Shown: positions 10,086 through 64,000, counted from the first letter of the stretch. The stretch: 64,000 nucleotides of DNA from Patescibacteria group bacterium (GCA_018819015.1 JAHJQY010000016.1:18064-82063), one strand, 5' to 3'. Translations and numbers: made by a program. Notes: generated by a model not told the origin, from the sequence alone.

Positions 10086-10535
10086 ATGTCTCAAAACAAA
10101 GAAATATATCTCATCCTCCACAACGTCCGCAGTCTGTATAATGTCGGCTCTATTTTTAGAACGGCTGATTGCGCCGGTGTGAAAAAAATTTTCCTGACCG
10201 GCTACACGCCGGAACCGGCTCCAAAAACCGCGCTCGGCGCGGAGAAAACCGTCCTTTGGGAAAAACACAAAAACATCTCCACCCTAATTTCCAATGTTCG
10301 AAGTTCAACTTCGAACATTAAAATAGTTGTGGTAGAACAAGACAAAAAAGCGATAAATTATAAAAATTTTAAACCAAAATATCCGCTAGTTTTAATTTTA
10401 GGCAATGAGGTGCGCGGGCTTTCCAAGCAAATCATCAAAAAATGCGACGCCATTATTGAAATCCCAATGAAGGGAAAAAAAGAATCTTTAAATGTGGCCG
10501 TGGCGGCCGGTATTATATTATTTTCTCTAAATTAA
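10086..10535 (+). CDS. SpoU/TrmH-family (SPOUT) RNA 2'-O-methyltransferase
   Basis: 'NVGSIFRTADCAGV' (motif 1) and 'LVLILGNEVRGL', 'IEIPMKG...SLNVAVAAGIILF' (SPOUT knot motifs). Contains the 27-nt palindrome at 10293-10319. Confidence 0.8.
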   Translation: MSQNKEIYLILHNVRSLYNVGSIFRTADCAGVKKIFLTGYTPEPAPKTALGAEKTVLWEKHKNISTLISNVRSSTSNIKIVVVEQDKKAINYKNFKPKYPLVLILGNEVRGLSKQIIKKCDAIIEIPMKGKKESLNVAVAAGIILFSLN

Positions 10536-20708: not shown

Positions 20709-20750
20709 ACTATATAACCATGTCCGGTCGGACATGGTTATATAGTGTTA
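20709..20750. repeat. Long hairpin element downstream of tsaE (aactatataaccatgtcc-ggtc-ggacatggttatatagtg)
   Basis: 18-bp near-perfect inverted repeat. A related 'actatatag...gttatatagtgtt' element occurs at 49636-49680. Confidence 0.6.
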
Positions 20751-26562: not shown

Positions 26563-26570
26563 TTAAAAAC

Positions 26571-26600
26571 AAATCCCGCCAATTGGCGGGATTTGTTTTT
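26571..26600. terminator. Bidirectional rho-independent terminator
   Basis: aaatcccgcc-aatt-ggcgggattt, a 10-bp stem flanked by T-runs on both strands. It overlaps the tyrS stop. Confidence 0.7.
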
Positions 26601-27795
26601 ACCCAAAAACCAACTTAACAAAAACTTTCTTCCCAACCCGGACAACACCGGGATTTATTATTTTGAAATGAATATCACTTATTGCCTCACCATTAAAATC
26701 AATCGCTCCGTCTTTTATAAGTCTGCGAAATTCCATGTTGGAAGAAATTATATTATTAAACAAAAGCGCGTCTTTTAATTCACTGTCTTTTTTAACAATA
26801 ATTTCTTTGGCATCTTCCGGCAACTCTCTTTTTTGAAAAGTTTTTATAAAATTATCTTGGGCTTGTTTAGTTTTTTTCTCTCCAAAAAACAATTTGATAA
26901 TTTCGTGAGCCGCAATTTTTTTAGCCTCCATTTTATCTCCCATTTTTTTAATTTTTTCCACCTCCGGTAAAGGTAGACGAGTATTGTTAACCAGAAAAAT
27001 TTCCGTCATCTCGTCGGGCTGAGACATAATGGCGCCAAACATTTCTCTTGGCGCTAAATCAAGAAAAACTCCGGTGCCACGGCTTTTGGACATCATCTCA
27101 CCAGTCTTGGGGTTTTCCATTAAATTAACCACCAAAACAAACTTATTTTTATTTTTAAATTTTTTTAACAATGTCCGGCCAACCAAAGCGTTAAAAATTT
27201 GATCCGTGCCGCACATTTCCACATCAACATCCAATTCAACACTGTCATAACCCTGCATCAATGGATATAAAAACTCGTGAAGATAAATGGGCTTATTTTC
27301 CGTCATTCTTTTTTGGAACATATCCCGGCCCAACAGCTGCTGGATAGTCAGATTTGAAGCTAAATCCACCACTTTCTCAAAACGAAGTTTGGAAAGCCAT
27401 TTATTATTATATAAAACTTTGGGTGGATTATTTTTATCCTTAAAATCCATCAGGGGACTAATTTGTTCTAGCCACCCCTTAACATTTTCCTTAATTTCAT
27501 CCGAAGAAAGCTGTTTTCTGCCTTCGCTTTGGTCTGTCGGGTCGCCAATTCTGGCGGTAAAATCACCTACCAAAACTATAACTTCGTGACCCAGTTGACG
27601 GAATTCCTCCAAAAGCAAATAATTTTTGGCATGGCTCAAATGAAGAGAAGGAGAAGTCGGATCAGCCCCGATATAAAATCTCAAACATTGACCGCTCAAA
27701 AGTTTATCTTTAAATTCTTTCAAAGAAGGGATAGCGTCTACAATCACGCCCCTGTTTAGAATTTCGTCAATTTTTTTCTCATCTTTTTTTATCAT
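26599..27795 (-). CDS. tyrS: Tyrosyl-tRNA synthetase
   Basis: Class I motifs 'PTSPSLHLSHA' and 'KMSKS', plus a C-terminal S4-like domain. Confidence 0.8.
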   Translation of the reverse strand: MIKKDEKKIDEILNRGVIVDAIPSLKEFKDKLLSGQCLRFYIGADPTSPSLHLSHAKNYLLLEEFRQLGHEVIVLVGDFTARIGDPTDQSEGRKQLSSDEIKENVKGWLEQISPLMDFKDKNNPPKVLYNNKWLSKLRFEKVVDLASNLTIQQLLGRDMFQKRMTENKPIYLHEFLYPLMQGYDSVELDVDVEMCGTDQIFNALVGRTLLKKFKNKNKFVLVVNLMENPKTGEMMSKSRGTGVFLDLAPREMFGAIMSQPDEMTEIFLVNNTRLPLPEVEKIKKMGDKMEAKKIAAHEIIKLFFGEKKTKQAQDNFIKTFQKRELPEDAKEIIVKKDSELKDALLFNNIISSNMEFRRLIKDGAIDFNGEAISDIHFKIINPGVVRVGKKVFVKLVFG

Positions 27796-27862: not shown

Positions 27863-30040
27863 ATGAGAAAATTTCTTTTGGGCTTAATTACTTTTTTTCT
27901 TTTATGCGCCGTAATTGGCGGGATCTTATTGTTTGTCTGGATAAAATCCATACCCATACCGGACTTCCAATCTTTCAATGAAAGAAAGGTTGTTCAGTCC
28001 ACAAAAATTTACGACAGAACAGGAAAAATAATCCTGTACGATATACATGAAAACATAAAAAGAACGGTAATTCCATACGAAGACATACCCATTTATATAA
28101 AAAATGCGACGGTTGCCATTGAAGATTCCAATTTTTATCAACACAGAGGAATAAGTATCACCGGAATAATAAGGGCGTTTATGACAAATATAAAAAGCGG
28201 AAAAATAAAAGGACAAGGCGGATCAACCATCACGCAACAATTGATAAAAAACACTTTCCTAACTCCGGAAAAAACTTTCACAAGAAAAATCAAAGAAGTT
28301 ATATTGTCATTTAAACTAGAAAGGGCGGTTTCAAAAGAAGAAATTTTAACCCTCTATTTAAACGAAGTGCCTTACGGAGGAAGCAATTATGGGATAGAAG
28401 CGGCTTCTCAGTCTTTTTTTAATAAATCAGCCAAAGATTTAAATCTGGCTGAATCTGCCTATCTGGCCGCCCTACCCCAAGCCCCAAGTTATTATTCCCC
28501 CTACGGCATACATACGGACGAACTGGAACAAAGAAAAAACCTTGTTTTAAAAAGAATGCTGGATTTAAGTTTTATAGAAGAAGGAACCTATGAAGAAAAC
28601 AAAAATAAAAAAATAACATTTACCAATCCGGATGAAAAAAACATTAAAGCGCCTCATTTTGTAATGTTTATAAAAAATTATCTGGAAGAAAATTACGGAG
28701 AAGATATGGCGGAAAACGGCGGTTTGAAAGTTATAACTACTATTGATTTAGATTTGCAAAAAGAGGCGGAGAAATTAGTTTTTGATTATTCAAAAGAAAA
28801 TGAAGAAAAATTCAACGCAAAAAATGCCGGTTTGGTTGCCGTGGACCCAAAAACAGGCCAAATACTTGTTATGGTTGGATCAAAAAATTATTTTGACGAA
28901 AATTATGAAGGAAAATTTAATGTGACGCTGGCAAAAAGACAGCCCGGTTCCGCTTTTAAGCCCTTTGTTTACGCCACGGCTTTTAAAAGAGGGTATACTC
29001 CGCAAACAGTAGTTTTTGATTTAAAAACAGAATTTAACAGCTCTTGTAATCCTGATGGGTCGCCAAAAGAAGGAACAAAAGAGGAAGAATGTTATCATCC
29101 GGTAAACTATGACGGTATTTTTAGGGGCCCGATCACACTAAAAGATGCCTTGGCCCAATCTATAAATATTCCCGCAATAAAAACACTGTACCTGGCCGGA
29201 TTAAAAAACTCTTTGGAAACAGCCCAAAGTTTGGGTATAACAACACTAACAGATCCTTTGCGGTACGGCCTTACCCTTGTTTTGGGCGGCGGAGAAGTAA
29301 CATTATTGGAAATGACCGGCGCTTATTCTGTTTTCGCGAACAATGGTATTAAAAATAAAACAACCGGTATTTTAAAAATAGAAGATAGTCGAGGAAATAT
29401 AATTGAAGAATTTATTCCTGAACCAAAATCGGTTTTAGACCAAAAAGTAGTAATAATGATAAACAATATATTGTCTGATAATAATGCCAGAACGCCTGCC
29501 TTTGGAGAATCTTCATGGCTTTATTTTCCCAAAAGGGAAGTTGCCGTCAAAACAGGAACAACAAATGATTATAGGGATGCCTGGGTAATCGGCTATACCC
29601 CAAATTTCGCGCTTGGAGTATGGGTTGGAAACAACAACAACACATCTATGGAAAAAAAAGTAGCCGGTTTTATCGCCGCCCCACTGTGGAATTCTTTTTT
29701 TAAAAAAGTTTTTGAAAAACTTCCCAAAGAAGATTTTTTAAAACCAGAAAACATTAATACAGAATTATTAAGCGGTGTAAAGCCAATACTTAAAGGGTAT
29801 TGGAAAGGAAATAGAATATATTTAATAGACAAAACAACACAAAATCCCGCGACAGAAAATACGCCGTCGGAATCAATAGAAGAAAAAATACTTACTCAAA
29901 TTCACTGCATTCTTTATTGGGTTGATAAAAATAATCCAGCAGGAGAAATACCAATAAATCCAGAAAAAGATTCTCAATTTATTTCATGGGAAACACCAGT
30001 GAGAGAATGGGTAAAAAATCAAAACATAAAAGAAGATTAG
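27863..30040 (+). CDS. mrcA: Class A penicillin-binding protein (transglycosylase + transpeptidase)
   Basis: GT51 motifs 'IEDSNFYQHRGI' and 'GGSTITQQL'. Transpeptidase 'SAFKPFVYATAF' (SxxK) and 'KTGTTND'. Confidence 0.85.
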   Translation: MRKFLLGLITFFLLCAVIGGILLFVWIKSIPIPDFQSFNERKVVQSTKIYDRTGKIILYDIHENIKRTVIPYEDIPIYIKNATVAIEDSNFYQHRGISITGIIRAFMTNIKSGKIKGQGGSTITQQLIKNTFLTPEKTFTRKIKEVILSFKLERAVSKEEILTLYLNEVPYGGSNYGIEAASQSFFNKSAKDLNLAESAYLAALPQAPSYYSPYGIHTDELEQRKNLVLKRMLDLSFIEEGTYEENKNKKITFTNPDEKNIKAPHFVMFIKNYLEENYGEDMAENGGLKVITTIDLDLQKEAEKLVFDYSKENEEKFNAKNAGLVAVDPKTGQILVMVGSKNYFDENYEGKFNVTLAKRQPGSAFKPFVYATAFKRGYTPQTVVFDLKTEFNSSCNPDGSPKEGTKEEECYHPVNYDGIFRGPITLKDALAQSINIPAIKTLYLAGLKNSLETAQSLGITTLTDPLRYGLTLVLGGGEVTLLEMTGAYSVFANNGIKNKTTGILKIEDSRGNIIEEFIPEPKSVLDQKVVIMINNILSDNNARTPAFGESSWLYFPKREVAVKTGTTNDYRDAWVIGYTPNFALGVWVGNNNNTSMEKKVAGFIAAPLWNSFFKKVFEKLPKEDFLKPENINTELLSGVKPILKGYWKGNRIYLIDKTTQNPATENTPSESIEEKILTQIHCILYWVDKNNPAGEIPINPEKDSQFISWETPVREWVKNQNIKED

Positions 30041-30043
30041 GAG

Positions 30044-31147
30044 TTATATATTCTTCATCGGCATAATCAAACAAAAAAAAGATTTATCATCTAAGCTTGT
30101 TATTAAAAGTGGTTTTCCTTCTCCGTTAAATTTTAAAATAATTTTTTCAGAATTTACAGAAGATAAACAGTCAATTAAATAACGGTGATTAAAAACCATC
30201 ATTAGATCATCTCCCTCTGTTTCTGTTTTAATATTCACAGTGTGTTCTCCTAAATCAGGGTTGTTAGTTTGAACTTCTAGAAAATTTTCATCTTTGTAAA
30301 TTTTTAACTTTACTTCGTTTAATTTTCCGCGGAATATTGCCGAACTTTTTAAACAATTATTAAATTCTTTTTTGTTAACTATTGCTGTGTTGGTAAAATC
30401 AACGGGAATAATTTGTTTATAATCAATAAAATTTCCATCAGTTAAACGAGTTGTAAATTCAATATTATCGTTTTCTAAAATTAAATTGTTGTCGTCTGTT
30501 TTTATTACAATGTCTCCTTCTTGATTTTCAAAAATTCTTAATATTTCAACCGCGCTCCGATAAGGTATTAAAATATTGGGAAAATTTGAAAAATTATAAG
30601 GAATTGTTTTTTCAGATAAACGAAAAGAGTCTGTGGCAACAAAAGTTAAAGGTGTTTTTACTGAAGAAAACAATAAAATACTATTTATTTCCGGCTTAAT
30701 TTCTGACAATGAAGCTGAACAATAAACCGACTTTAAACCTGATATAAAATCATTAACAGAAACAATAAAAGAATTTTTTTCTTTTATTGTTGGCAATAAA
30801 GGAAAATCCTCCACAAGATAACCTTTTATGGTTGTTGAACTGTTTTTTGTTGTAATAATTAAATTATCTTTAATACTGTCTAGTTTTATTTCATTATGGT
30901 CTGGCAAAGAAGAAATAAGGCTGCAAAAAAGCTTAGAAGGTAGGGCGACTTTTCCCTCTTTTTCTATTTTTGCGGGTATTGAAATTTTTAAAGCTATTTC
31001 AAGATTAGTATTAAAAAAAACTAAAGAATTTTTATTGGCAGAAATTAAGACTGCGTTTAAAATCGGCAAGGTTGGATTACGATTAGGTATTTTTTCGCTT
31101 AACAACCCCGCTTTTTGTAAATAATGTTTTAAACAAGTTGCCTTCAT
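30044..31147 (-). CDS. dnaN: DNA polymerase III beta sliding clamp
   Basis: 367 aa, immediately downstream of dnaA, with a typical N-terminus 'MKATCLKHYLQKA'. Confidence 0.85.
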   Translation of the reverse strand: MKATCLKHYLQKAGLLSEKIPNRNPTLPILNAVLISANKNSLVFFNTNLEIALKISIPAKIEKEGKVALPSKLFCSLISSLPDHNEIKLDSIKDNLIITTKNSSTTIKGYLVEDFPLLPTIKEKNSFIVSVNDFISGLKSVYCSASLSEIKPEINSILLFSSVKTPLTFVATDSFRLSEKTIPYNFSNFPNILIPYRSAVEILRIFENQEGDIVIKTDDNNLILENDNIEFTTRLTDGNFIDYKQIIPVDFTNTAIVNKKEFNNCLKSSAIFRGKLNEVKLKIYKDENFLEVQTNNPDLGEHTVNIKTETEGDDLMMVFNHRYLIDCLSSVNSEKIILKFNGEGKPLLITSLDDKSFFCLIMPMKNI

Positions 31148-31345
31148 AATTAATTTAATATTTATTTAAATAATTTATTATTATTATTAAACATGTGGAT
31201 ATTGTTGATAACTTGAATTTGATTTGTAAAATTAAAGAATAAAAACATTTTTTAATTTAATAATTTGTTGATAAATATTTTATTAATCGTTGATATGTTA
31301 TTAATATAATAAATCCAATAATAACTTATAAACCAATTATCAACA
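31148..31345. promoter_or_regulatory. Candidate oriC: AT-rich dnaA-dnaN intergenic region with DnaA boxes
   Basis: Four to five TTATCCACA-like boxes, each 8/9 match: tgtggatat (31193-31201), tgttgataa (31203-31211), tgttgataa (31266-31274) and ttatcaaca (31337-31345). Confidence 0.6.
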
Positions 31346-32722
31346 TTATTTATACAAACAATCCCTTATTTTTTGTATCTCATCTTTTATTTGATAGTTG
31401 TTTTTTATATCTTTTGAGATTTTTTCATAAGCATGAATTGCTGTTGTGTGGTCTCTGCCTCCAAGTTTTTTTCCAATATATGGATAAGAAGCGTTAAAAT
31501 CTTCTCTTAATAAATACATTATAATTTGCCTTGGTAAAACATATTCTTTTCTTCTTGATTTTTCAAAAATAAATCTTTCTTCTATTTCATAAAAATCGCC
31601 TATAGTTTTAATTATTTTATTAAATGTTATTTTTTTCTTTGAATAAATAATGTTTTTATTGAATATTTCTTTTAATTCCTGGGTGGATAAATTTTTACCA
31701 AGAAGTTTTGATTGAGCCAATAGAAGATTTAAGGCACCCTCAAGCTCCCGCACATTGTTTTTTATTGTTGAAGCAATATAATTTATTGTTTCTTCCGACA
31801 AGTCAATATCTTTTGTTTGTAGTTTTGATTTTAAAATAGCTATTCTTGCTTCATATTCCGGTTCTGATATATCAGCCATCATTCCTCCTTCAAATCTAGA
31901 CCTTAATCTTTCTTCTAGATCAAGTATTGATTTTGGCGATCTGTCTGAGGAAAAAATAATTTGCTTATTTTTTTCATATAAAGAATTAAAAATATGAAAA
32001 AGTTCTTCTTGTGTTTTTGTTTTACCTGATAAAAATTGGATATCATCTATTATTAATAAATCATATTTTTTATAACCTTCTTTGAATTCATGTATTGTGT
32101 TGTTTTGTATTGAAGATATGAGCATGTTGGCGAATTTTTCCAAAGTCGTGTATTTTATTTGAGATTTTTCATTATCTTCTTTTATTTTATTGCCGATAGC
32201 TTGTAATAAATGAGTTTTACCCAAACCAACCCCTCCATATATAAATAATGGGTTATATGTTGTTCCTGGATTTTTTATCACAGCCACGGCGGCGGCATGA
32301 GCCAGTTCATTAAATGAACCAACTATAAAATCATTAAAAGTATAGCGGGGATTTAACGACTCTTTTGTTTCGTGGAATTCTTTAAATTCCATTTGTTGGC
32401 TTTCTTCTGTTTTTTGCGGCATTAATTTAATTGTCGAGATTTTTTCACAGATAGGCTTTATTTTATTACTAACAATATATTCTGTATCTTTGATTGACGG
32501 GTCTATTTTTCGTAAAGCGCTTATTATAAATTTATTATATTTGTTTTTTACCCATTCTTTACTGAAACTGTTCGGCACACCTATAAAAACAATGCCGTTT
32601 TCAGTTTTTTCTATATTGGTGTTTTTTAACCAGGTAACAAAATTAGCTTTTGATATAAGCATTTCCAATTCATTGAGTGTTTTTTCCCAGATTTGTCCTT
32701 TTTCTGTTTGTTGGGTATCCAT
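31346..32722 (-). CDS. dnaA: Chromosomal replication initiator DnaA
   Basis: 'GGVGLGKTHLLQAIGN', 'DDIQFL', and a C-terminal HTH 'LGGRDHTTAIHAYEKI'. Confidence 0.95.
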   Translation of the reverse strand: MDTQQTEKGQIWEKTLNELEMLISKANFVTWLKNTNIEKTENGIVFIGVPNSFSKEWVKNKYNKFIISALRKIDPSIKDTEYIVSNKIKPICEKISTIKLMPQKTEESQQMEFKEFHETKESLNPRYTFNDFIVGSFNELAHAAAVAVIKNPGTTYNPLFIYGGVGLGKTHLLQAIGNKIKEDNEKSQIKYTTLEKFANMLISSIQNNTIHEFKEGYKKYDLLIIDDIQFLSGKTKTQEELFHIFNSLYEKNKQIIFSSDRSPKSILDLEERLRSRFEGGMMADISEPEYEARIAILKSKLQTKDIDLSEETINYIASTIKNNVRELEGALNLLLAQSKLLGKNLSTQELKEIFNKNIIYSKKKITFNKIIKTIGDFYEIEERFIFEKSRRKEYVLPRQIIMYLLREDFNASYPYIGKKLGGRDHTTAIHAYEKISKDIKNNYQIKDEIQKIRDCLYK

Positions 32723-32841
32723 GTTTTGATTATAGCTTAATAAGAGAACAGACGTAAAATCGTCTAAATTGGTTATATGTTAACAATCTGTGTATTATTT
32801 GTGAATATTGCTTTTTGGTGATTATAATTTATAATAAAAAC

Positions 32842-32976
32842 ATGTCTGTTACCTATCAACCAAAAAAAAGAAAAAGGAAAAAAACTCACGGTTTTTTAAA
32901 AAGATCAAAAACTCCGGGCGGAAGAAATATTTTGAAAAACAGAAGGAGAAAAAATAGAAAGAAATTAACAGTCTAG
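32842..32976 (+). CDS. rpmH: 50S ribosomal protein L34
   Basis: [44 protein letters not shown], 44 aa, in the conserved position upstream of rnpA. Too short for the ORF track. Confidence 0.9.
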
Positions 32977-32985
32977 TTTAATGGC

Positions 32986-33324
32986 ATGTTGCCTTTTTTG
33001 AATAGGTTAAAAAAAGAAGACTTCAAATTATTAAAAAATTTTAAAAAAAAATTTTTTGTTTCCGATAATATTAATTTGAAGCTGTATTATTCCGGTTTCA
33101 ATCCAAGTCGTTTTTCTGTTGTTGTTCCGACAAGTTTTTCAAAGAAGGCGACAAAAAGAAATAAAATAAAAAGACAAACAAAAGCGGCTCTTTTGAATTA
33201 TTTAAAAAAAATTGAACCCGGCTTTGCTTCTGTTTTTTATTTTAAAAAAGAAACAAAAAATCTTTCTTTTGAAGAAATAAAAAAAGAGATATTGTTTCTT
33301 TTAAAAAAATCTAAAATTTTATGA
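32986..33324 (+). CDS. rnpA: RNase P protein component
   Basis: 112 aa and basic, with 'KRNKIKRQ'. Sits in the rpmH-rnpA-yidC context. Confidence 0.8.
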   Translation: MLPFLNRLKKEDFKLLKNFKKKFFVSDNINLKLYYSGFNPSRFSVVVPTSFSKKATKRNKIKRQTKAALLNYLKKIEPGFASVFYFKKETKNLSFEEIKKEILFLLKKSKIL

Positions 33325-34055
33325 TTGGGAATATTTATCAAATTGTTTTTTTTCAGCCGTTGTATAACGGTCTTATTTTTTTAACGAAAATTCTGCCGTT
33401 TAATGATTTAGGGCTGGCAATTGTTTTTTTGACGGTGATAGTCAGATTTATTTTATTTCCTTTGAGCCATAAATCAATAGTTACGCAAAAAAAAATAAAA
33501 ATTTTAGAACCGGAGATTAATAAAATTAAAAATAAGCATAAAGAAAAACAAGAAGAACAGACGAAACAAATAATGGCTTTGTATAAAAATCACGGCATAA
33601 ATCCCTTCTCTGGTTTCTTTTTAATTCTTATACAATTACCCGTTTTTATCGCTTTATATACGATTCTTAGAAATTTTTCTGCTATAAATTCCGATTTACT
33701 CTATTCTTTTTTGGGCGTTGTTGAAAAAGTGAACACATCTTTTTTGGGGTTAATAGATATTTCAAAGCCCAGTTATTTAATTTCTATTCTGGCGGGTCTT
33801 TCCCAGTTTTTTCAAATAAAATTATCTTTACCTCCCGGCAAAAAAATACCCCAAAAAGAACGTTCTTTTAAGGATGAGTTGCAAAGAAGCATGGGAATTC
33901 AGATGAGATACGTTATGCCCGTATTTATTTTTTTTATTGCCCAGCGTTTTTCCTCCGGACTGGCGCTTTATTGGACAACTTCAAACATTTTTGCTATATT
34001 TCATGAAATTATCGTAGCCAGAAAAGCAAAGAAATTAGAACAAAATGGAAGATAA
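33321..34055 (+). CDS. yidC: Membrane protein insertase YidC (short, Oxa1-like)
   Basis: 'QIMALYKNHGINPFSG' and 'LPVFIALY', with 5 TM helices. Confidence 0.85.
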   Translation: MIGNIYQIVFFQPLYNGLIFLTKILPFNDLGLAIVFLTVIVRFILFPLSHKSIVTQKKIKILEPEINKIKNKHKEKQEEQTKQIMALYKNHGINPFSGFFLILIQLPVFIALYTILRNFSAINSDLLYSFLGVVEKVNTSFLGLIDISKPSYLISILAGLSQFFQIKLSLPPGKKIPQKERSFKDELQRSMGIQMRYVMPVFIFFIAQRFSSGLALYWTTSNIFAIFHEIIVARKAKKLEQNGR

Positions 34056-45600: not shown

Positions 45601-45670
45601 CGCCCTTTTTCCGCCCCCATGTGGATAATCAATGTTCGAAGTTCAACTTCAATCATTGGCGTGCGGGGGA

Positions 45671-57817: not shown

Positions 57818-58712
57818 AGGTGTGTACATGGCTTTGGCCACGGCTTTTGTCAGCGGTTTCGCAGTTTTTTTTAATAAATTTGCCGTCGATTTTTGGCAGA
57901 ATTCTTCGGTTTTTACAACCGGCAAAAATTTAGTGGCTGCGTTGTTTTTAACTTCTCTTATTTTATTGTTAAAAAAGAGAACCGAGTTGAAAAATTTAAC
58001 CAAAAAACAGTGGTTGCAGCTGGTTGTTATTGGTTTTGTCGGCGGTTCGGTTCCTTTTCTTTTGTTTTTTAAAGGATTGTCGCTTGCCTCGGCGGTTAAC
58101 GCCGCTTTTATTCATAAAACATTGTTTGTTTGGGTCGCGTTTTTGGCTGTTTTGTTTCTTAAAGAAAAAACTTCTGTTTTGCAGTGGTTGGCACTGGCTG
58201 TTCTTTTTGCGGGAGTTTATCTTTTTTCTTCGCCCGGCGATTTTAAAATTGGTTACGGAGAAATTTTAGTTTTTGGCGCCACTTTAATATGGGCTGTTGA
58301 AAATATAATTGCCAAAAAGGTTTTAGAAAATATTTCTGCGCTGGTTGTGGGGTGGGGCAGGATGTTTTTCGGGTCGTTTTTTCTTTTGGTTTATCTAGTT
58401 GCGACTGGCGATATTGTCCAACTATTGAAGTTCAACTTCAATAGTTGGGGCTGGTTGGTTTTAAGCGGCGCGATTCTTTTTGGCTATGTCGTCACCTGGT
58501 ATTCGGCTCTAAGGCGCGCGCCGGCCACAGTGGTTTCTTCAATTTTGGTTCTGGCGGCGCCGATTACCGCTTTGCTAAATTCTATTTTTATAACCCATCA
58601 ATTTAAAATTTCTTTGCTTTGGCCGACGGTCTTGATTTTGACCGGAGTTTTATTAGTCAGCGGATTATATGGATGGTTTAGAACTTTTTATCAAGTACGC
58701 CCTGCCTCCTAA
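57807..58712 (+). CDS. EamA/DMT-family transporter
   Basis: About 10 TM helices in two EamA repeats. Contains a 29-nt palindrome at 58419-58447. Confidence 0.7.
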   Translation: MKNKGVYMALATAFVSGFAVFFNKFAVDFWQNSSVFTTGKNLVAALFLTSLILLLKKRTELKNLTKKQWLQLVVIGFVGGSVPFLLFFKGLSLASAVNAAFIHKTLFVWVAFLAVLFLKEKTSVLQWLALAVLFAGVYLFSSPGDFKIGYGEILVFGATLIWAVENIIAKKVLENISALVVGWGRMFFGSFFLLVYLVATGDIVQLLKFNFNSWGWLVLSGAILFGYVVTWYSALRRAPATVVSSILVLAAPITALLNSIFITHQFKISLLWPTVLILTGVLLVSGLYGWFRTFYQVRPAS

Positions 58713-59609: not shown

Positions 59610-60827
59610 TTAGTGTACAGAACAAGTAATACATGGATCATAGGCCCGGACGAGCATCTCAAGTAGGCGCTCTTTTTCTTTTTGGGTTTTTTCTTTGTTT
59701 TGCTCCAAAAGCGCGTTAGCGCTTTTTTCTATGGAGGTAAGGTTTTGCACGGTTGGAGTGATAATGTTGGCGTAGGTGATAATGCCTTTGTTGTTCCAGC
59801 GCAGTTCATGGTAAAGCCCGCCGCGCGGGGCTTCTATTGCGCCTATACCCTCGCTTGCGTAAACATCGAAGTCCGACTTCGATGTTCCATCGAAGTCGGA
59901 CTTCGATGCAAGTAATTGTTCTAAAATTTTTCCGGCTTGTTTGTGATAAAGCAAAATTTCAATGGCCTGCGCGATATTGTTATGGAAAGGATTTTGAAAA
60001 TCTAGGATTTCTTTTTCTTTGTGGTCGGAAAAATAAAGCCGGGCCAGCGCGCCAACCATTATTTCTCGGCCCTTATAGCCGCCAAATTTGGCAGTGGAAT
60101 AGTTTCTGATTTCCTCGGTAATAACTTCTTTATAATTTTTTATAGAAGGGTTTACCCTGAGCGGAGTCGAAGGGTCGTTTTTGTTTGATAAAATTTTTTC
60201 TTTCTTTTGGGTTACTAGCTCTAAATCAACTTTTAGTTCCGGAAATTTAATTTTTGAGCAGATATTCAAGGCGCGACCAGCCGACGCTCTTGTTTGTTTG
60301 ATTTTTTGGAGCAGTTTTTCCAATTGTTCTCTAGTCGGAATTTTATGAAAACCGCCGATGGTGGTGGTTGTCGGGTGGACGTTGCGGCCGGCCACGACAG
60401 CCGCGATGTCATCGGAGACTTCTTTTATATCCAGCGCGGCCTTAAAATCTTTTGGATTTTTTTGGGCCAGCTCGGTGCCGCGGTCTATTCCCAGATAGTC
60501 CGGCAAAGACAAAAAGAATAAATGAAGAGCGTGGCTTTGCATCATTTGGGCGCAGACCATCAATTCGCGAAGGAGTTCTGTTGTTTCGCTGATTTCAATT
60601 TTCAGGCCATCCTCGCAAGCGCGCAAAGAGGCCAGATTATGGGCGATAGGGCAGACGCCGCAGATGCGCGGGGTTATCCAGTGGCTTTCTTCAATGGTTC
60701 GGCCGACCAGCAATCCTTCAAAAAGCCGCTCGCCTTCGTGAATATGCAGTTTGACTTGGCTCTTGGAAAAATCAGTTTCCAAGCTACCGTGTCCCTCAAT
60801 TTTCGCGATATATTTATCGGTGATCAT
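59610..60827 (-). CDS. [NiFe]-hydrogenase large subunit, group 3 (sulfhydrogenase alpha-like)
   Basis: 'KIEGHG' at the N-terminus, L1 'RICGVCPIAH', and L2 'DPCITCSVH' as the very C-terminus with no extension. Contains tandem in-frame palindromes at 59862-59910 and a family-2 repeat at 60155-60174. Confidence 0.85.
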   Translation of the reverse strand: MITDKYIAKIEGHGSLETDFSKSQVKLHIHEGERLFEGLLVGRTIEESHWITPRICGVCPIAHNLASLRACEDGLKIEISETTELLRELMVCAQMMQSHALHLFFLSLPDYLGIDRGTELAQKNPKDFKAALDIKEVSDDIAAVVAGRNVHPTTTTIGGFHKIPTREQLEKLLQKIKQTRASAGRALNICSKIKFPELKVDLELVTQKKEKILSNKNDPSTPLRVNPSIKNYKEVITEEIRNYSTAKFGGYKGREIMVGALARLYFSDHKEKEILDFQNPFHNNIAQAIEILLYHKQAGKILEQLLASKSDFDGTSKSDFDVYASEGIGAIEAPRGGLYHELRWNNKGIITYANIITPTVQNLTSIEKSANALLEQNKEKTQKEKERLLEMLVRAYDPCITCSVH

Positions 60828-61588
60828 TTTTCATTTTTATTATAAAACATCGTGAAATATCTTTTTATTTCTTCTTCGTCGGCGAATTTTTTGAGGGCTT
60901 GTTTTAATCCTTCAACATTGGCTTCTTCGCGTGGGCCGAAACAGCCGTAGCAGGGCGAGCCGCCGGAAATACAGATGGCCTGGCATCCGCCTTGCGTTAT
61001 CGGGCCCAGGCAGATTTTTTTGTTTATAATGCGGCATTCATTGCCGGCTCGCTTGCAGTCAAAGCAGACCGAGTATGGCCGGTAACTCGGTTTTTTGCCG
61101 GCCAAAAGTTCTTCAAAAATTCTTTCCAGCTCGCCGGCATTAACCGGACAGCCATGAATAGCAAAATCCACCTTGACATAAGCGCTAAGCGGTAAAGCGT
61201 CAATTCCTTTCGGCTTGTACACTTGCCCTGAGCTTGTCGAAGGGTATATTTTTTTGTACCACCCGGCGCGTTTTTCTTGGTCCATAATTCCCGGTATCCC
61301 CGCCAGCGCGGCGCAGGCGCCGAGCGCGATGACATATTGGGAGTTTTCGCGAAGCCATTTCAAGGTGTCAATTTCATCTTGGGTGATGGGCGCTCCTTCA
61401 ATAAGCGCAATGTCAAAATATTTATCCTGAGCAGAGTCGAAGGATTTTCGTTCTTGCCCCAGCCGCCAGTCAACAATGTCAACTTGTTTTTCCAAATCCA
61501 AAAATCGTTCGCGAAGAGAAATTATTTCCACTTCGCACCCCTCGCAGTCGGTAAAATCATAGATGGCTACTTTAGGTTTTAATCCCAT
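60824..61588 (-). CDS. [NiFe]-hydrogenase small subunit, group 3 (delta-like)
   Basis: 'DFTDCEGCE', 'GACA' and 'HGCP' proximal-cluster cysteines, plus a C-terminal Cys-rich region for additional FeS clusters. Confidence 0.8.
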   Translation of the reverse strand: MGLKPKVAIYDFTDCEGCEVEIISLRERFLDLEKQVDIVDWRLGQERKSFDSAQDKYFDIALIEGAPITQDEIDTLKWLRENSQYVIALGACAALAGIPGIMDQEKRAGWYKKIYPSTSSGQVYKPKGIDALPLSAYVKVDFAIHGCPVNAGELERIFEELLAGKKPSYRPYSVCFDCKRAGNECRIINKKICLGPITQGGCQAICISGGSPCYGCFGPREEANVEGLKQALKKFADEEEIKRYFTMFYNKNEK

Positions 61589-62394
61589 GATTTATCTATT
61601 TCATCATAATTAAATACCGGGCCGTTTAGGCAGACATATTTGTCGCCGATTGTGCAATGCTGGCATCTGCCAACTCCACACTGCATTTTTCTTTCTAGAC
61701 TGACAAAAATCCGGCGGTCGGAAATTCCCAATGGTCTTAAAACTTTTTCCAGCGCGTCCATCATCGGGCCCGGTCCGCACATGGTGGCCACCGCGTTGGC
61801 CGGATCTATTTCTATTTTTTTGACAAGGTCGGTCACAAAACCAACGCATCCTTGCCATTCCGGATGGGGCGAGTCTATTGTCAAAATTATATTGATTTGT
61901 TTTTCCCAATCTTTAATTTCATCTTTCATTAAAATATCGTTCGGCGTGCGCGCTCCGTATAATAAATAAACTTTGCTGAATTTGCCGCGGTTTTTAATAA
62001 TGTATTTTACAAGAGAAGCGATAGGCGGAATGCCGCAACCGCCGGTGGCCATGACAATATCTTTTCCTTCAAAAAAATCCAAAGGAAAACCATTGCCATA
62101 AGGGCCGCGCAGAGTTATTTCGTCGCCGATTTTCAGATTGTGGAGCGCCGAGGTGACATTGCCGCCCGTGTCTCTGACTACTATGTCTATATGTTTTTTT
62201 TCATAAGGCGATGAAGCTGGCCCAAAAGGAGCTTCGCCGTAACCCCAAACGCCGGCCAGCACAAACTGGCCCGGCGTAAAATCCATTCTTTTTTTTAACC
62301 GGAAAAGTTTAACATTTTCGGAAAGTTTTTTTATATCAAGTATTTTTATTTGTTCAGGCAGATAAATATTTTCCATACATTTATAATACTGCAA
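61579..62394 (-). CDS. Hydrogenase gamma subunit (PyrK-like FAD/NAD(P)-binding with C-terminal [2Fe-2S])
   Basis: 'FRLKK...PGQFV' FAD-binding barrel, 'GGCGIPP' Rossmann motif, and 'CGVGRCQHCTIGDKYVCLNGPVFNYDE'. Confidence 0.75.
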   Translation of the reverse strand: MQYYKCMENIYLPEQIKILDIKKLSENVKLFRLKKRMDFTPGQFVLAGVWGYGEAPFGPASSPYEKKHIDIVVRDTGGNVTSALHNLKIGDEITLRGPYGNGFPLDFFEGKDIVMATGGCGIPPIASLVKYIIKNRGKFSKVYLLYGARTPNDILMKDEIKDWEKQINIILTIDSPHPEWQGCVGFVTDLVKKIEIDPANAVATMCGPGPMMDALEKVLRPLGISDRRIFVSLERKMQCGVGRCQHCTIGDKYVCLNGPVFNYDEIDKSWD

Positions 62395-63145
62395 AATACA
62401 GGCATTTCCAATTTCCCAGCGACAAGTCTTCCGCCCGCGTTTTTTCCGGAATTCCGCATTCTCTCAGTGTTTCTATTGATATATTAAGATTGTTTTTCAG
62501 CATCTTTCTTTTTTGGGAAAATCCTTTTTTAATCAGATTAAAAAATTTTTGTTCATCAATGATGGAAGTTGAACTTCCATCATTGAAAAAATTTTTGGAA
62601 ATGTTGTTTATTTTAATTACGGCCGAATCAACTTTCGGCGTTGGCGAGAAATTGCCGGCCGGCACTTTTTTTATAATTTTCGGCTGGCCGTAGGCATTTA
62701 CGCTTAACGATAGTATGCTGGCTTTTTTGTCGCGCATTACGATTCTCTCGGCTACTTCTTTTTGAATCATCAGAACCATCAGCGATGGCTGGTGTTCCGC
62801 GCCTAGAAATTGCCGCAGGAAATGCGAAGTGATGTAATAAGGAATGTTTGCCACAATTTTGAAATTTTTTATCCTGAGCTTGTCGAACGGATTGAATCTT
62901 AAAATATCGTCTTGGATAATTTCAAGATTTTTGGCGCCGGAAAATTTCTGTTTTAAAAATTCAACAAGCGATGGATCTTTTTCAACCGCGATAACTTGGC
63001 CGGCTTTGGCCAAAAGTTTTTCGGTCAGGATTCCTTTACCCGGACCGACCTCCAAGATGATGTCGTCCTTTTTTATTTCGGCGGCCTCAATAATTTCTTC
63101 GGCTATTTTTTTGTTTTGTAAAAAATTTTGTCCCAGTTTGGCCAT
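62381..63145 (-). CDS. rsmA: 16S rRNA (adenine1518/1519-N6)-dimethyltransferase
   Basis: 'MAKLGQNFLQN', 'EVGPGKGILT' and 'VANIPYYITS'. The start was trimmed to the canonical Met. Contains a palindrome at 62557-62585 and a family-2 repeat at 62871-62892. Confidence 0.85.
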   Translation of the reverse strand: MAKLGQNFLQNKKIAEEIIEAAEIKKDDIILEVGPGKGILTEKLLAKAGQVIAVEKDPSLVEFLKQKFSGAKNLEIIQDDILRFNPFDKLRIKNFKIVANIPYYITSHFLRQFLGAEHQPSLMVLMIQKEVAERIVMRDKKASILSLSVNAYGQPKIIKKVPAGNFSPTPKVDSAVIKINNISKNFFNDGSSTSIIDEQKFFNLIKKGFSQKRKMLKNNLNISIETLRECGIPEKTRAEDLSLGNWKCLYFAVL

Positions 63146-63146
63146 A

Positions 63147-64000
63147 TTAAAAATCCAGATAATTAGTAGCCGGTAAATTTTCAAAATTTTGTTCAAAAAG
63201 CTCTGGCGGGATTTCGTTTATGAATCTTGACGGCTGGTTTATCTGCCGTCCGCCCATCATGGTCCGGCTGTAAGCGAAAGATAAATGGATTTTTTTCTGA
63301 GCGCGCGTCAGGGCGACGTAAAACAGACGTCTCTCTTCCTCTTCTTCGTCTTTGCCGAACGAGAAAGGTTTGATATACGGGAATAATCCGTCTTCAAGGC
63401 CGGCTATAAAAACACAGGGGAATTCCAGTCCTTTGGCGGCGTGTACTGTCATCAGCCGCACTTTTCCTTCCGAGGTTTTGGTAGGTGAGGGCGCAACTTC
63501 GTCTTGGTCTGTCATTAGCGCCGCGTCTTCCATAAATTTTTCCATCCCCCGAGGAGGTTTTAGGCCGTCATGTTTCATGGACAAGACAACAAGTTCTTTC
63601 AGGTTATCCATTCTCATTATTCCTTCCTCGGTGCCGTTGTCAAGATAGTTTTGGTACCCGCTTTCTTTTATTATGAAAAACAGCGCTTTTGAGAGAGGTT
63701 GGCTGTTTATTGTTTTTTTGATTTTTTCAAGCAGTCCAAAAAATTCTTTTATTTTTTCCATCCTGAGCGGAGTTGAAGGATTGCCGGTGAGATGATTCAG
63801 CAGGCTTGCTTTTCCCAGACCCCTCGAGGGTTCATTTATGATTCTTTCAAGGCTTATTATATCGCCAGGGTTCATGGCTGCTTTGGCGTAAGCAATAATA
63901 TCTTTCACTTCTTTTCTTTCAAAAAATTTTGTTCCTACAACTTGGTAGGGCAGGCCGCGGGAGATAAAAGATTCTTCCAGCGCTCGCGACTGGAAATTTG
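63147..64000 (-). CDS. UvrD/PcrA/Rep-family helicase, C-terminal portion (continues beyond the window)
   Basis: 'MTVHAAKGLEFPCVFIAGLEDGLFP' and 'YVALTRAQKKIHLS' (helicase motifs V and VI). The frame remains open at the window end. Confidence 0.7.
   Translation of the reverse strand, partial: NFQSRALEESFISRGLPYQVVGTKFFERKEVKDIIAYAKAAMNPGDIISLERIINEPSRGLGKASLLNHLTGNPSTPLRMEKIKEFFGLLEKIKKTINSQPLSKALFFIIKESGYQNYLDNGTEEGIMRMDNLKELVVLSMKHDGLKPPRGMEKFMEDAALMTDQDEVAPSPTKTSEGKVRLMTVHAAKGLEFPCVFIAGLEDGLFPYIKPFSFGKDEEEEERRLFYVALTRAQKKIHLSFAYSRTMMGGRQINQPSRFINEIPPELFEQNFENLPATNYLDF

What the first reader, a model, noticed from the sequence alone, without database searches (positions are those of the whole stretch)
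60155..63782. Second short in-frame repeat family (YCCTGAGC-NNN-GTYGAASGR) clustered in the hydrogenase-ksgA-helicase region
Five copies of a ~20-22 nt motif lie within 3.7 kb. All are in the same orientation and all sit inside coding sequence of four different minus-strand genes:
- 60155-60174 (hydrogenase large subunit): ccctgagcggagtcgaaggg, encoding DPSTPLRV.
- 61226-61244 (small subunit): ccctgagcttgtcgaaggg, encoding PSTSSGQ.
- 61424-61445 (small subunit): atcctgagcagagtcgaaggat, encoding FDSAQDK.
- 62871-62892 (ksgA): atcctgagcttgtcgaacggat, encoding PFDKLRI.
- 63760-63782 (helicase): atcctgagcggagttgaaggat, encoding NPSTPLRM.

The copies are read in different frames in different genes. 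That argues for a nucleotide-level element, such as a REP-like or protein/RNA recognition site, rather than a conserved peptide. Most copies have short flanking inverted repeats (atcct...aggat).
Basis: seen in the sequence. Interest (0 to 1): 0.7.

Follow-up and report, generated by a model that had tools for sequence, protein, structure and literature searches.

The report
REP-like hairpin repeats inside genes
Five copies of a short hairpin-forming DNA repeat, from a family found across many bacterial phyla and usually lying between genes, sit inside four neighbouring genes of a Patescibacteria genome, where they are translated as short loop peptides; this is a new example of a known phenomenon, not a new kind of system.

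Summary
Five same-strand copies of TGAGC-N2-3-GTYGAA, each flanked by a 3-5 bp inverted repeat, lie within 3.63 kb. There are none in the other ~73 kb of the contig that I could read (0.26 expected by chance). All five lie antisense inside the hydrogenase large and small subunit genes, ksgA and a UvrD/PcrA helicase gene.

This is a nucleotide-level element, not a peptide motif:
- two reading frames are used;
- rare codons are used;
- the two small-subunit copies are +5 aa relative to most orthologues, and the large-subunit copy is a 24-nt insert flanked by a 7-nt direct repeat;
- the ksgA and helicase copies occur in only 2 of about 120 orthologues each.

The same core occurs in metagenome contigs of 32-71% GC and in plasmids of Alpha-, Beta- and Gammaproteobacteria, Bacteroidota and Cyanobacteria. 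There it is mostly intergenic, often paired or in tandem, and carries a usually unpaired NGTC/NCTC 5' tag. Across 130 copies the core is constant and the flanking stem covaries strongly.

The best reading is a REP-type palindromic repeat. The closest known group is the CGTC-tagged REP superfamily, which is already known to occur inside genes, including UvrD helicases. How it spreads, and why the copies cluster here, are unresolved. No Rfam family or searchable paper describes this family.

The parts
60154..60175 (+). Copy 1: ACCC-TGAGC-GGA-GTCGAA-GGGT. It lies antisense in the hydrogenase large-subunit gene and is translated as DPSTPLRV. With its 5' flank GTTT (from 60150) it forms a 24-nt unit.
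   Evidence: CM score 31.6 bits. Nearest orthologues are about 7 aa shorter at this point.
60145..60151 (+). GAAGGGT, a 7-nt direct repeat of 60169-60175. The two repeats bracket a 24-nt (8 aa) insertion that contains copy 1.
   Evidence: Read directly from the sequence. 24 nt is also the period of tandem units in L078.
61224..61246 (+). Copy 2: TGCCC-TGAGC-TT-GTCGAA-GGGTA. It lies antisense in the hydrogenase small-subunit gene and is translated as PSTSSGQ (site B).
   Evidence: CM score 31.5 bits. Net +15 nt compared with empty sites in about 50 orthologous loci. Patchy on the gene tree. Predicted coil after helix 104-114.
61424..61445 (+). Copy 3: ATCC-TGAGC-AGA-GTCGAA-GGAT. It lies antisense in the hydrogenase small-subunit gene and is translated as FDSAQDK (site A).
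   Evidence: CM score 30.9 bits. +5 aa compared with the consensus E.GP. Predicted loop between two strands.
62871..62892 (+). Copy 4: ATCC-TGAGC-TT-GTCGAA-C-GGAT. It lies antisense in ksgA/rsmA and is translated as PFDKLRI, in the length-variable linker before the NIPYY motif.
   Evidence: CM score 22.9 bits. Present in 2 of 120 orthologues. The orthologous copy in L323 has an ACCC/GGGT stem.
63760..63781 (+). Copy 5: ATCC-TGAGC-GGA-GTTGAA-GGAT. It lies antisense in the UvrD/PcrA-type helicase gene and is translated as NPSTPLRM.
   Evidence: CM score 26 bits. No length change compared with orthologues; present in 2 of 119 aligned homologues, the second copy seen among the 70 alignment rows printed. 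The orthologous copy in L322 has a CCC/GGG stem.
59610..60827 (-). Host gene: [NiFe]-hydrogenase large subunit (PF00374).
60824..61588 (-). Host gene: hydrogenase small (delta-type) subunit (PF01058).
62381..63145 (-). Host gene: ksgA/rsmA, the 16S rRNA dimethyltransferase (PF00398).
63147..64000 (-). Host gene: UvrD/PcrA-type helicase. This is the C-terminal part; the gene runs off the window end. The full 653-aa gene is at L001 6481-8442.

Best explanation
The five copies are minimal members of a widespread family of REP-type (repetitive palindromic) DNA elements.

The family unit (shown):
- a constant 13-14 nt centre, TGAGC-(YT or GNA)-GTCGAA;
- a covarying stem around the centre;
- in full-length copies, a usually unpaired NGTC/NCTC 5' tag.
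In most bacteria the elements lie between genes, singly, as inverted pairs or in tandem.

In this Patescibacteria genome five copies have entered loop-coding or linker-coding parts of four adjacent genes (shown).

Steps that are inferred, not shown:
- They are tolerated because those protein segments are permissive. In the antisense orientation, none of the three frames through the constant bases has a stop codon.
- They are passengers: selfish or neutral DNA, not parts of the proteins' function.
- New copies arise by copying from an existing copy. The route would be microhomology-guided template switching or short-patch gene conversion, not cut-and-paste by a dedicated transposase.

What fits copying:
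- one copy is a clean 24-nt unit flanked by a 7-nt direct repeat;
- one copy overwrote about 8 nt while adding a net 15 nt;
- the helicase copy replaced a segment of equal length, and the ksgA copy lies in a length-variable linker where gain or loss of length cannot be decided;
- all five copies lie within 3.6 kb.

For the centre I propose a T-A pair, tandem G.A/A.G pairs, a G-C pair and a small loop. That structure is not demonstrated.
For: The repeat is real and clustered.

The copies are derived states in all four genes:
- Both small-subunit sites are +5 aa and are scattered on the gene tree.
- Alignment of filled and empty sites shows a net +15 nt. All carriers read G-Q-[AV] where empty sites read G-[EKPD]-x, so the element's conserved 5' flank came in with it.
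- The large-subunit copy is about 7-8 aa extra relative to the nearest relatives and is flanked by the GAAGGGT direct repeat.
- The ksgA and helicase copies are found in only 2 of about 120 orthologues each.

The constraint is at nucleotide level: rare codons are used.

The family exists well beyond this genome:
- plasmids of Sinorhizobium, Methylobacterium, Novosphingobium, Comamonas, Methylobacter, Hymenobacter, Dolichospermum and others, mostly under no annotated gene.

In low-GC contigs the copies are mostly intergenic: 46 intergenic against 14 inside ORFs. They occur in either orientation relative to flanking genes. Inverted and tandem pairs are frequent: HH 35, TT 34, HT 25.

Stem covariation across 130 copies:
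- covariation score 0.569 against 0.249 in shuffles (0 of 500 shuffles reach it);
- slid controls give 0.11-0.21;
- the three inner pairs are 88-94% paired, with CG, GC, UA and AU types.

The two orthologous copy pairs differ by compensatory changes, ATCC/GGAT against ACCC/GGGT, while the core is kept.

The 5' tag is GTC, CTC or TTC in 111 of 137 copies. The 3' flank is heterogeneous.

Published precedent: CGTC-tagged REPs occur in several phyla, lack a dedicated transposase and occur inside genes, notably UvrD/Rep and other repair genes (PMC3733652).

Both small-subunit inserts fall in predicted coil regions (a low-confidence model).
Against: - Predicted folding energies of the window copies are unremarkable. 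DNA values are -0.5 to -2.8 kcal/mol, RNA values -2.3 to -7.4, and z-scores run from -1.6 to +0.4. Structure is supported by covariation only.
- The window copies lack the NGTC/NCTC tag. Their 5' flanks are TTTA, CTTG, TTTA, TTTA and TCCA.
- There is no uniform target-site duplication, so the insertion mechanism is not established.
- Copy density in 1.16 Mb of related Patescibacteria loci is low: 13 core hits. A high-flux mobile element is therefore not evident.
- The tight clustering is unexplained.
- The compensatory stem changes between orthologues could reflect selection for pairing, meaning a function, rather than neutrality. They could also reflect independent conversion by different subfamilies.
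- Synonymous conservation in the orthologous copies is only suggestive: 9 of 12 codons are identical against a gene-wide 45-55%.
- A core this constant across phyla is unusual for REPs, which are typically lineage-specific.
Confidence: 0.6

Rival explanations
1. A miniature transposon of the REPIN/RAYT or IS200/IS605 type. The hairpin would be recognised as single-stranded DNA by an HUH tyrosine transposase encoded elsewhere in the genome, which cuts and pastes it, or copies it, into new sites.
For: A hairpin with a constant centre, a covarying stem and a short unpaired 5' tag is the layout recognised by such enzymes. Inverted pairs resembling REPINs or BIMEs are common. One copy has a 7-nt flanking direct repeat.
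Against: - No GTAG tag is present.
- The published CGTC-type REPs, the closest relatives, are not associated with any transposase gene (PMC3733652).
- No Y1-transposase Pfam family appears among the called genes of the roughly 29 kb of this window that the locus tables cover. The rest of the genome was not seen.
- There is no constant target sequence, and no constant insertion length: the net changes are +24, +15, +15 nt and none for the helicase copy, with ksgA ambiguous.
- Any bias towards one replication strand is weak. GC skew oriented to the motif strand is positive in 56 of 134 loci, P about 0.02-0.07.
Confidence: 0.15
2. A functional structured site in the transcript of the helicase-ksgA-hydrogenase gene cluster. 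It could be a binding or processing site for a conserved RNA-binding protein or RNase, or a target for an antisense or small RNA, kept by selection inside coding sequence.
For: - All five copies have the same orientation in one co-directional gene run.
- Stems differ by compensatory changes between orthologues while the core is kept.
- Most intragenic copies elsewhere are also antisense to the ORF.
- An Rfam sRNA family, RF02901, contains an inverted pair of a near-identical motif.
Against: - In intergenic settings the element occurs in both orientations relative to flanking genes: 25 co-directional against 11 opposite, with six of the 25 coming from one array.
- The strand with the better non-canonical pairing potential is not the mRNA strand here.
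- Folding energies are not significant.
- Most orthologues of all four genes lack the site.
- The FAD/NAD subunit gene in the middle of the cluster has no copy.
- No Rfam family reaches its threshold.
Confidence: 0.12
3. A DNA uptake or drive sequence that accumulates by point substitution plus biased uptake and recombination, as USS and DUS do. This would explain the equal-length helicase copy, and possibly the ksgA copy.
For: The helicase copy replaces native residues without any change in length. Patescibacteria are thought, from general knowledge, to depend on DNA uptake.
Against: - Density is far too low and too local: 5 copies in 77 kb, all within 3.6 kb, and 13 in 1.16 Mb of relatives.
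- The same core is shared by many phyla rather than being lineage-specific.
- The covarying stem has no role in known uptake sequences.
- Three copies are true insertions.
Confidence: 0.04
4. A chance or compositional coincidence, a shared peptide motif, or an assembly artefact.
For: None beyond the shortness of the motif.
Against: - 5 matches are observed against 0.26 expected.
- Two frames and rare codons are used.
- The same inserts are found at the same sites in independent assemblies from other samples.
Confidence: 0.01

Closest known systems
CGTC-tagged REP superfamily (Di Nocera, De Gregorio & Rocco 2013, PMC3733652). It includes Neisseria dRS3 and Rickettsia RPE-4 and RPE-6.
   Same: - Short GC-rich palindromic repeats with an unpaired CGTC/TGTC/CCTC-type tag at one end.
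- Arms that often begin with A-T/T-A pairs; the ATCC/GGAT form is common in this family.
- An 8-position arm and a roughly 5-nt loop, if the two G.A positions are counted as stem: ATCCTGAG-CTTGT-CGAAGGAT.
- Presence in several phyla.
- Mostly extragenic, but with in-frame intragenic units, notably in UvrD/Rep and other repair genes.
- No known dedicated transposase.
   Different: - The peptides listed for intragenic CGTC-1 to CGTC-4 units (SFPRKRES, VILDGRNIEF, DGRVKPGHD, VIPVLDTGI and others) do not match this family. It is therefore not one of the four described families.
- This family has two conserved non-Watson-Crick positions in the arm.
- It lacks the CCA tail. The 3' flanks are heterogeneous.
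- TT and tandem pairs are as common as HH pairs, whereas HH predominates in CGTC families.
- The window copies lack the tag altogether.
Rickettsia palindromic elements (RPE; Ogata et al. 2000, as cited in PMC3184786 and PMC3733652)
   Same: Palindromic repeats inserted in frame into many unrelated protein-coding genes of a small-genome bacterium. They are translated as extra surface peptides and are tolerated.
   Different: RPE-1 type elements are about 105-146 bp and are restricted to one genus. These copies are 19-26 nt, adding 0-8 aa, and the family spans many phyla.
GTAG-type REPs, REPINs and BIMEs mobilised by RAYT transposases
   Same: Short imperfect palindromes that are highly repeated and mostly extragenic, and that occur as inverted pairs and clusters.
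   Different: This family has no GTAG tag, and no RAYT gene was seen. REP families are normally specific to a species or genus, whereas this core is shared across phyla.
Rfam RF02901 (AaHKsRNA41, Aggregatibacter sRNA 41)
   Same: Its consensus contains an inverted pair of GCUGAgCUUGcCGAAGC, almost the same core.
   Different: The matches reach only 31-41 bits against a gathering score of 97. They are confined to loci holding an inverted pair of the element. Nothing in the window matches.

Membership tests
CGTC-tagged REP superfamily | An unpaired terminal tag CGTC (or TGTC/CCTC) at one end of the palindrome. | tested here: inconclusive
   Family at large: 111 of 137 ATCC-type copies have GTC, CTC or TTC directly 5' of the stem, while the 3' flank is heterogeneous. 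Window copies: none of the five has the tag; their flanks are TTTA, CTTG, TTTA, TTTA and TCCA.
CGTC-tagged REP superfamily | A stem of 8-9 bp that begins with complementary A-T residues, and a loop of 4-5 nt. | tested here: inconclusive
   ATCCTGAG / CGAAGGAT gives 8 positions, two of which are G.A/A.G rather than Watson-Crick pairs. The loop is CTTGT (5 nt) or CGNAGT (6 nt). The A-T start is seen in about 40% of the unbiased copies.
CGTC-tagged REP superfamily | A 3-nt unpaired tail, mostly CCA. | tested here: not met
   The 3' triplets after GGAT are GAC 14, GAG 14, CTC 10, CTT 9, CAG 7 and others. CCA is not among the frequent ones.
CGTC-tagged REP superfamily | Mostly extragenic with some in-frame intragenic units. 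HH dimers predominate; TT are rare and HT negligible. | tested here: inconclusive
   The extragenic bias is met: 46 intergenic against 14 in ORFs in low-GC contigs. The dimer pattern differs: HH 35, TT 34, HT 25.
CGTC-tagged REP superfamily | Sequence membership in one of the families CGTC-1 to CGTC-4. | tested here: not met
   The peptides of intragenic units in the paper's supplement do not correspond to this core. The consensus figure itself is not held, so the test is indirect.
REP/REPIN with RAYT (GTAG type) | A GTAG (or GTGG) tetranucleotide at the 5' base of the hairpin. | tested here: not met
   The 5' flanks are NGTC/NCTC, or T-rich in the window copies.
REP/REPIN with RAYT (GTAG type) | A RAYT (Y1 transposase) gene in the genome, flanked by the repeats. 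| not tested
   Pfam tables were seen only for about 42 kb of the contig: 29 kb of the window plus 12.8 kb of flanks. No Y1_Tnp family appears there. The rest of the genome is not available.
Rickettsia palindromic elements (RPE-1 type) | An element of about 100-150 bp inserted in frame. | tested here: not met
   The copies are 19-26 nt. Net length changes are 0, 15, 15 and 24 nt, with ksgA ambiguous.
DNA uptake sequences (USS/DUS) | High, genome-wide density of a lineage-specific motif. | tested here: not met
   There are 5 copies in 77 kb, all within 3.6 kb. There are 13 in 1.16 Mb of relatives. The core is shared across phyla.
Rfam RF02901 AaHKsRNA41 | A score at or above the gathering threshold of 97 bits. 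| tested here: not met
   The best score is 41 bits in L218, and there is no match in the window.

The most novel reading that the evidence does not exclude
The hairpin could be more than junk. On this reading it is a pan-bacterial structured element whose 13-14 nt centre (T-A, tandem G.A/A.G, G-C and a small loop) is recognised by a factor conserved from Patescibacteria to Proteobacteria, and whose pairing is kept by selection even inside coding sequence. The compensatory ATCC/GGAT to ACCC/GGGT changes between orthologous ksgA and helicase copies would be the trace of that selection. Alternatively, or in addition, it could spread as an ultra-short unit of 15-24 nt by microhomology-templated copying. 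That would be a route for creating in-frame peptide insertions in the streamlined proteins of candidate-phyla-radiation bacteria, and the same genomes also carry other in-frame palindrome families at the same permissive sites.
Probability: 0.15. Interest if true: 0.75.

Novelty: new member of a known kind. Interest (0 to 1): 0.42.

Why it matters
- It documents a REP-type repeat family with an unusually constant core across distant phyla. The family is absent from Rfam and from the papers I could search. It also extends intragenic REP "decoration" of proteins to Patescibacteria.
- In practical terms, the element explains short lineage-specific insertions (PSTSSGQ, FDSAQDK, PSTPLR, FDKLR) in otherwise conserved enzymes. 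It also explains spurious peptides of this kind in metagenomic protein sets.
- The filled and empty sites, and the orthologous copies with compensatory stem changes, give a tractable case for asking two questions: whether such hairpins are maintained by selection, and how transposase-less REPs spread.

Tried and rejected
- Rfam scans of the region (E up to 10) and of 18 element-rich loci gave nothing at threshold, only sub-threshold RF02901.
- Literature searches by the encoded peptides and by exact DNA strings found nothing relevant. Searches on Patescibacteria palindromes and on mini-hairpins also found nothing relevant.
- Hammerhead, K-turn, T-loop/tRNA-like, SECIS, attC, dif and parS resemblances were considered by inspection and dropped. 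The defining bases or bulges are missing, or the strand is wrong.
- Folding energy is not informative for these short stems.
- Replication-strand bias by local GC skew is weak: positive in 56 of 134 loci. Gene orientation in the window is mixed, so no origin or strand inference was made.
- Proximity to tRNA genes is mild (6 of 16 tRNAs within 300 nt) and is probably a by-product of the intergenic location.
- Synonymous-site conservation between orthologous copies is suggestive only: 9 of 12 codons against 45-55% gene-wide.
- Alignment of KsgA to PDB homologues only showed that the site is a variable linker.
- Attempts to fetch the rest of the contig partly failed. About 20 kb of the 96.6-kb contig was not examined.

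Full report
**1. The observation**

The five sequences are at the stated places on the + strand. Their cores start at 60158, 61229, 61428, 62875 and 63764.
- TGAGC-N1-6-GTYGAA matches exactly these five sites and nothing else in 64 kb. The expectation from shuffles is 0.26. Stricter patterns give the same picture.
- Each core is bracketed by a short inverted repeat: ACCC/GGGT, CCC/GGG (extendable by a G.T and a T-A pair), and ATCC/GGAT three times. Copy 4 carries one extra base.
- All five lie inside minus-strand ORFs. The source contig's gene table identifies these as a [NiFe]-hydrogenase large subunit, its small subunit, KsgA/RsmA and a UvrD/PcrA-type helicase.
- The source is a Patescibacteria MAG contig of 96.6 kb.
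- Corrections are minor. The last copy ends at 63781. The spacer is 2 or 3 nt. Only two reading frames are used.

A covariance model built later finds only these five copies in the window. It finds no credible extra copy in 12.8 kb of additional contig. The five copies therefore occupy 3.63 kb of the 76.8 kb examined. I estimate the chance of such clustering at about 2.5e-5.

**2. Nucleotide element or peptide?**

The copies are read as PSTPLR or PSTSSG in one frame and as FDSAQ or FDKLR in another. They use codons that are rare in this genome: CTC is 4.8% of Leu codons, AGG 15% of Arg, TCG 13% of Ser. The probability of these codons given the peptides is about 1e-5 per copy.

Small subunit:
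- An alignment of 45, then 120, homologues shows that both sites are +5 aa relative to the consensus: ERK-E.GP-F and IY-GEx-YKP.
- The same or degenerate inserts occur in a scattered minority of orthologues. PSTSSGQ occurs in P0008, P0019, P0024 and P0026. FD.A[QR] variants occur in P0003, P0004, P0017, P0034, P0076 and P0099.
- On a tree built from the rest of the protein, carriers are interleaved with non-carriers.
- At DNA level the filled site B differs from about 50 empty sites by a net 15 nt. All carriers read G-Q-[AV] where empty sites read G-[EKPD]-x. The element's conserved 5' flank (R)CTTGYCC therefore arrived with the core and overwrote about 8 nt.

Large subunit:
- The copy is about 7-8 aa extra relative to the closest relatives.
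- It is a 24-nt insertion flanked by a 7-nt direct repeat, GAAGGGT at 60145-60151 and 60169-60175.

ksgA: the copy sits in a length-variable linker and is present in 2 of 120 orthologues.

Helicase: the copy replaces a native segment of equal length. NPSTPLR aligns with KSLPATK, KTLPTAR and similar segments. It is present in 2 of 119 aligned homologues.

The one other carrier of each of these two genes is the closest homologue found.
- In those orthologous copies the core is kept: identical in ksgA, one change in the helicase.
- The stem reads ACCC/GGGT or CCC/GGG instead of ATCC/GGAT, a compensatory T-A to C-G exchange.
- Codon identity in the motif is 9 of 12 against 45-55% gene-wide, which is only suggestive.

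An AlphaFold model of the small subunit (mean pLDDT 63.6, so low confidence) puts both inserts in coil between secondary-structure elements.

**3. The family beyond this genome**

Related Patescibacteria:
- In 80 hydrogenase loci of related species (1.16 Mb) the core occurs 13 times, against 1 for a reversed control.
- These include small-subunit site B again, and a further site in the large subunit: YHE..L[AD]PSTSSGF in L126, L137 and L168.

Collection scans:
So did a scan of metagenome contigs for ATCCTGAGC-N2-3-GTCGAAGGAT, which has 19 specified bases.
- The hit contigs range from 32 to 71% GC.
- Spacers are strongly biased to TT, CT and GNA.
- The 5' flanks recur: GCCTGY, TGTCAY, GTTCGC, GCTCAT.
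- Tandem arrays (periods of 24, 27 and 32 nt), inverted pairs and nested copies occur.

Named organisms: BLAST of a 33-nt consensus against plasmids finds the element in Sinorhizobium, Methylobacterium, Microvirga, Novosphingobium, Sphingomonas, Comamonas, Sulfuricella, Methylobacter, Hymenobacter, Dolichospermum and Gloeothece. Most hits lie under no annotated gene.

Location and arrangement:
- In low-GC contigs 46 copies are intergenic, 10 are antisense inside long ORFs and 4 are sense.
- Intergenic copies occur in either orientation relative to their neighbours.
- Among neighbouring copies, HH, TT and tandem arrangements number 35, 34 and 25.

**4. Structure**

I took copies whose flanks had not been fixed by the search patterns.
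- The three positions next to the core are Watson-Crick paired in 82-87% of cases, against 38-48% expected from the column compositions. CG, GC, UA and AU all occur.
- On an alignment of 130 copies the covariation score of the 8-pair stem is 0.569, against 0.249 in shuffles (0 of 500 reach it) and 0.11-0.21 when the partner is slid.
- The core itself is invariant. That is partly by construction, because the core was the search key.
- By inspection the core could form T-A, G.A, A.G and G-C pairs closing a 5-6 nt loop. This is my inference.
- Nearest-neighbour energies of the window copies are unremarkable.
- In full-length copies the 5' side carries GTC, CTC or TTC directly before the stem in 111 of 137 cases. 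The 3' side complements it only in a minority.

**5. What it is**

The element is short, GC-rich and palindromic. It is repeated, mostly extragenic, and occurs as inverted pairs and clusters. It has a short unpaired tag at one end. These are the features of REP-type repeats.

The closest described group is the CGTC-tagged REP superfamily of Di Nocera et al. (PMC3733652). That paper reports:
- tags CGTC, TGTC or CCTC;
- arms of 8-9 bp that start with A-T;
- loops of 4-5 nt;
- occurrence in five phyla;
- no associated transposase;
- in-frame intragenic units, notably in UvrD/Rep, UvrABC, RecBCD and Pol I genes.

The present family is not one of its four families, judging from the peptides listed for intragenic units. 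It also lacks the CCA tail and has a different mix of dimer types. In addition, the window copies lack the tag. I therefore file it as a related, apparently undescribed REP family, not as a member of CGTC-1 to CGTC-4.

Rfam has no family for it. The only echo is RF02901, whose consensus holds an inverted pair of almost the same core.

**6. How it most likely works**

Shown:
- The copies are derived, nucleotide-level insertions or replacements in permissive protein segments.
- They belong to a structured repeat family.

Inferred:
- They are passengers. They are tolerated because the segments are loops or linkers, and because none of the three antisense frames through the constant bases has a stop codon. 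One sense frame contains TGA.
- The junctions are heterogeneous. One copy is a clean unit with a 7-nt direct repeat. One overwrites about 8 nt for a net gain of 15 nt. The helicase copy is an equal-length replacement, and the ksgA copy sits in a length-variable linker.
- Those junctions, the absence of a transposase for the nearest known families, and the tight clustering fit copying from an existing copy better than cut-and-paste. The route would be microhomology-guided template switching or short-patch conversion. This is not demonstrated.

Rivals are set out separately with what would refute them: RAYT/IS200-type mobilisation, a functional RNA site in the operon transcript, an uptake or drive sequence, and chance or peptide explanations.

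**7. Verdict**

It is a new member of a known kind of element, in a lineage where it had not been described, with several unexplained features:
- constancy of the core across phyla;
- compensatory stem changes inside coding sequence;
- clustering of the five copies;
- an antisense bias among intragenic copies.

Interest is moderate.

Noticed in passing
window 2072-2102, 2887-2917, 10291-10321 (also 45629-45659; variants at 58418-58448 and 62556-62586): A second in-frame palindrome family, AATGTTCGAAGTTCAACTTCGAACATT, is translated as NVRSSTSNI in three different plus-strand ORFs. The variants in the EamA gene and in ksgA (NDGSSTSII) keep the centre GAAGTTNAACTTC, but their outer arms changed on both sides so that the palindrome stays perfect.
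   Followed up: partly
window 59864-59908: Two tandem 21-nt palindromes, CATCGAAGTC(C/G)GACTTCGATG, lie inside the hydrogenase large-subunit gene and are translated as SKSDFDGTSKSDFD. They sit in a loop where other lineages carry different repeat-like peptides, such as PTPGVGDSPTPGVG and PTLRVGDSPTRRVG.
   Followed up: partly
window about 62540-62600 (KsgA domain linker), compared with 120 orthologues: This linker is a hot spot. Many orthologues carry different palindrome-like inserts here, for example GGSASGG, RSSTS, CATLNVAQ and PPLRQGFAGRA, while the baseline has none. The small-subunit site B also hosts a different GC-rich hairpin insert in L123/P0007, read as GSPRQAGQE.
   Followed up: partly
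L207 4267-4369; L288 862-1075; L078; L028, L031 and L073: Elsewhere the element forms tandem arrays with periods of 27, 32 and 24 nt. It also forms nested arrangements, with two 5' halves followed by two 3' halves.
   Followed up: partly
window 20709-20746 and 26564-26601: Two long perfect palindromes (18+18 and 19+19 nt) lie at or near gene boundaries. They are unrelated in sequence to the finding.
   Followed up: no
window 30001-34000: A markedly AT-rich stretch, GC 0.26-0.29 against about 0.40 elsewhere.
   Followed up: no
loci L136, L193-L197, L201 and L150-L174: Close homologues of the hydrogenase small subunit (45-63% identity) occur in MAGs labelled Nanoarchaeia, Altiarchaeota and Thermodesulfobacteriota. 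This suggests horizontal spread of this hydrogenase, or mis-binning.
   Followed up: no
L322 18872-21852 and 8201-8485: In the closest relative that carries the helicase copy, the ksgA neighbourhood holds conjugation or type-IV-secretion-like genes (PrgI, TraC-like, TraG P-loop) and a ParE toxin gene.
   Followed up: no
L001 4722-4749 (minus strand): A weak, degenerate match to the covariance model (12.6 bits, E = 0.35) reads GCGC-TGAAAGGTCTAA-GCGC, in the Mg-chelatase-like gene just outside the window. It could be a decayed copy or chance.
   Followed up: no
L055, L215, L233, L288, L290 and L317: Six of the 16 tRNA genes found in the element-bearing loci lie within 300 nt of a copy. This is more than the roughly 1 expected, but it is probably because both favour non-coding DNA.
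   Followed up: partly
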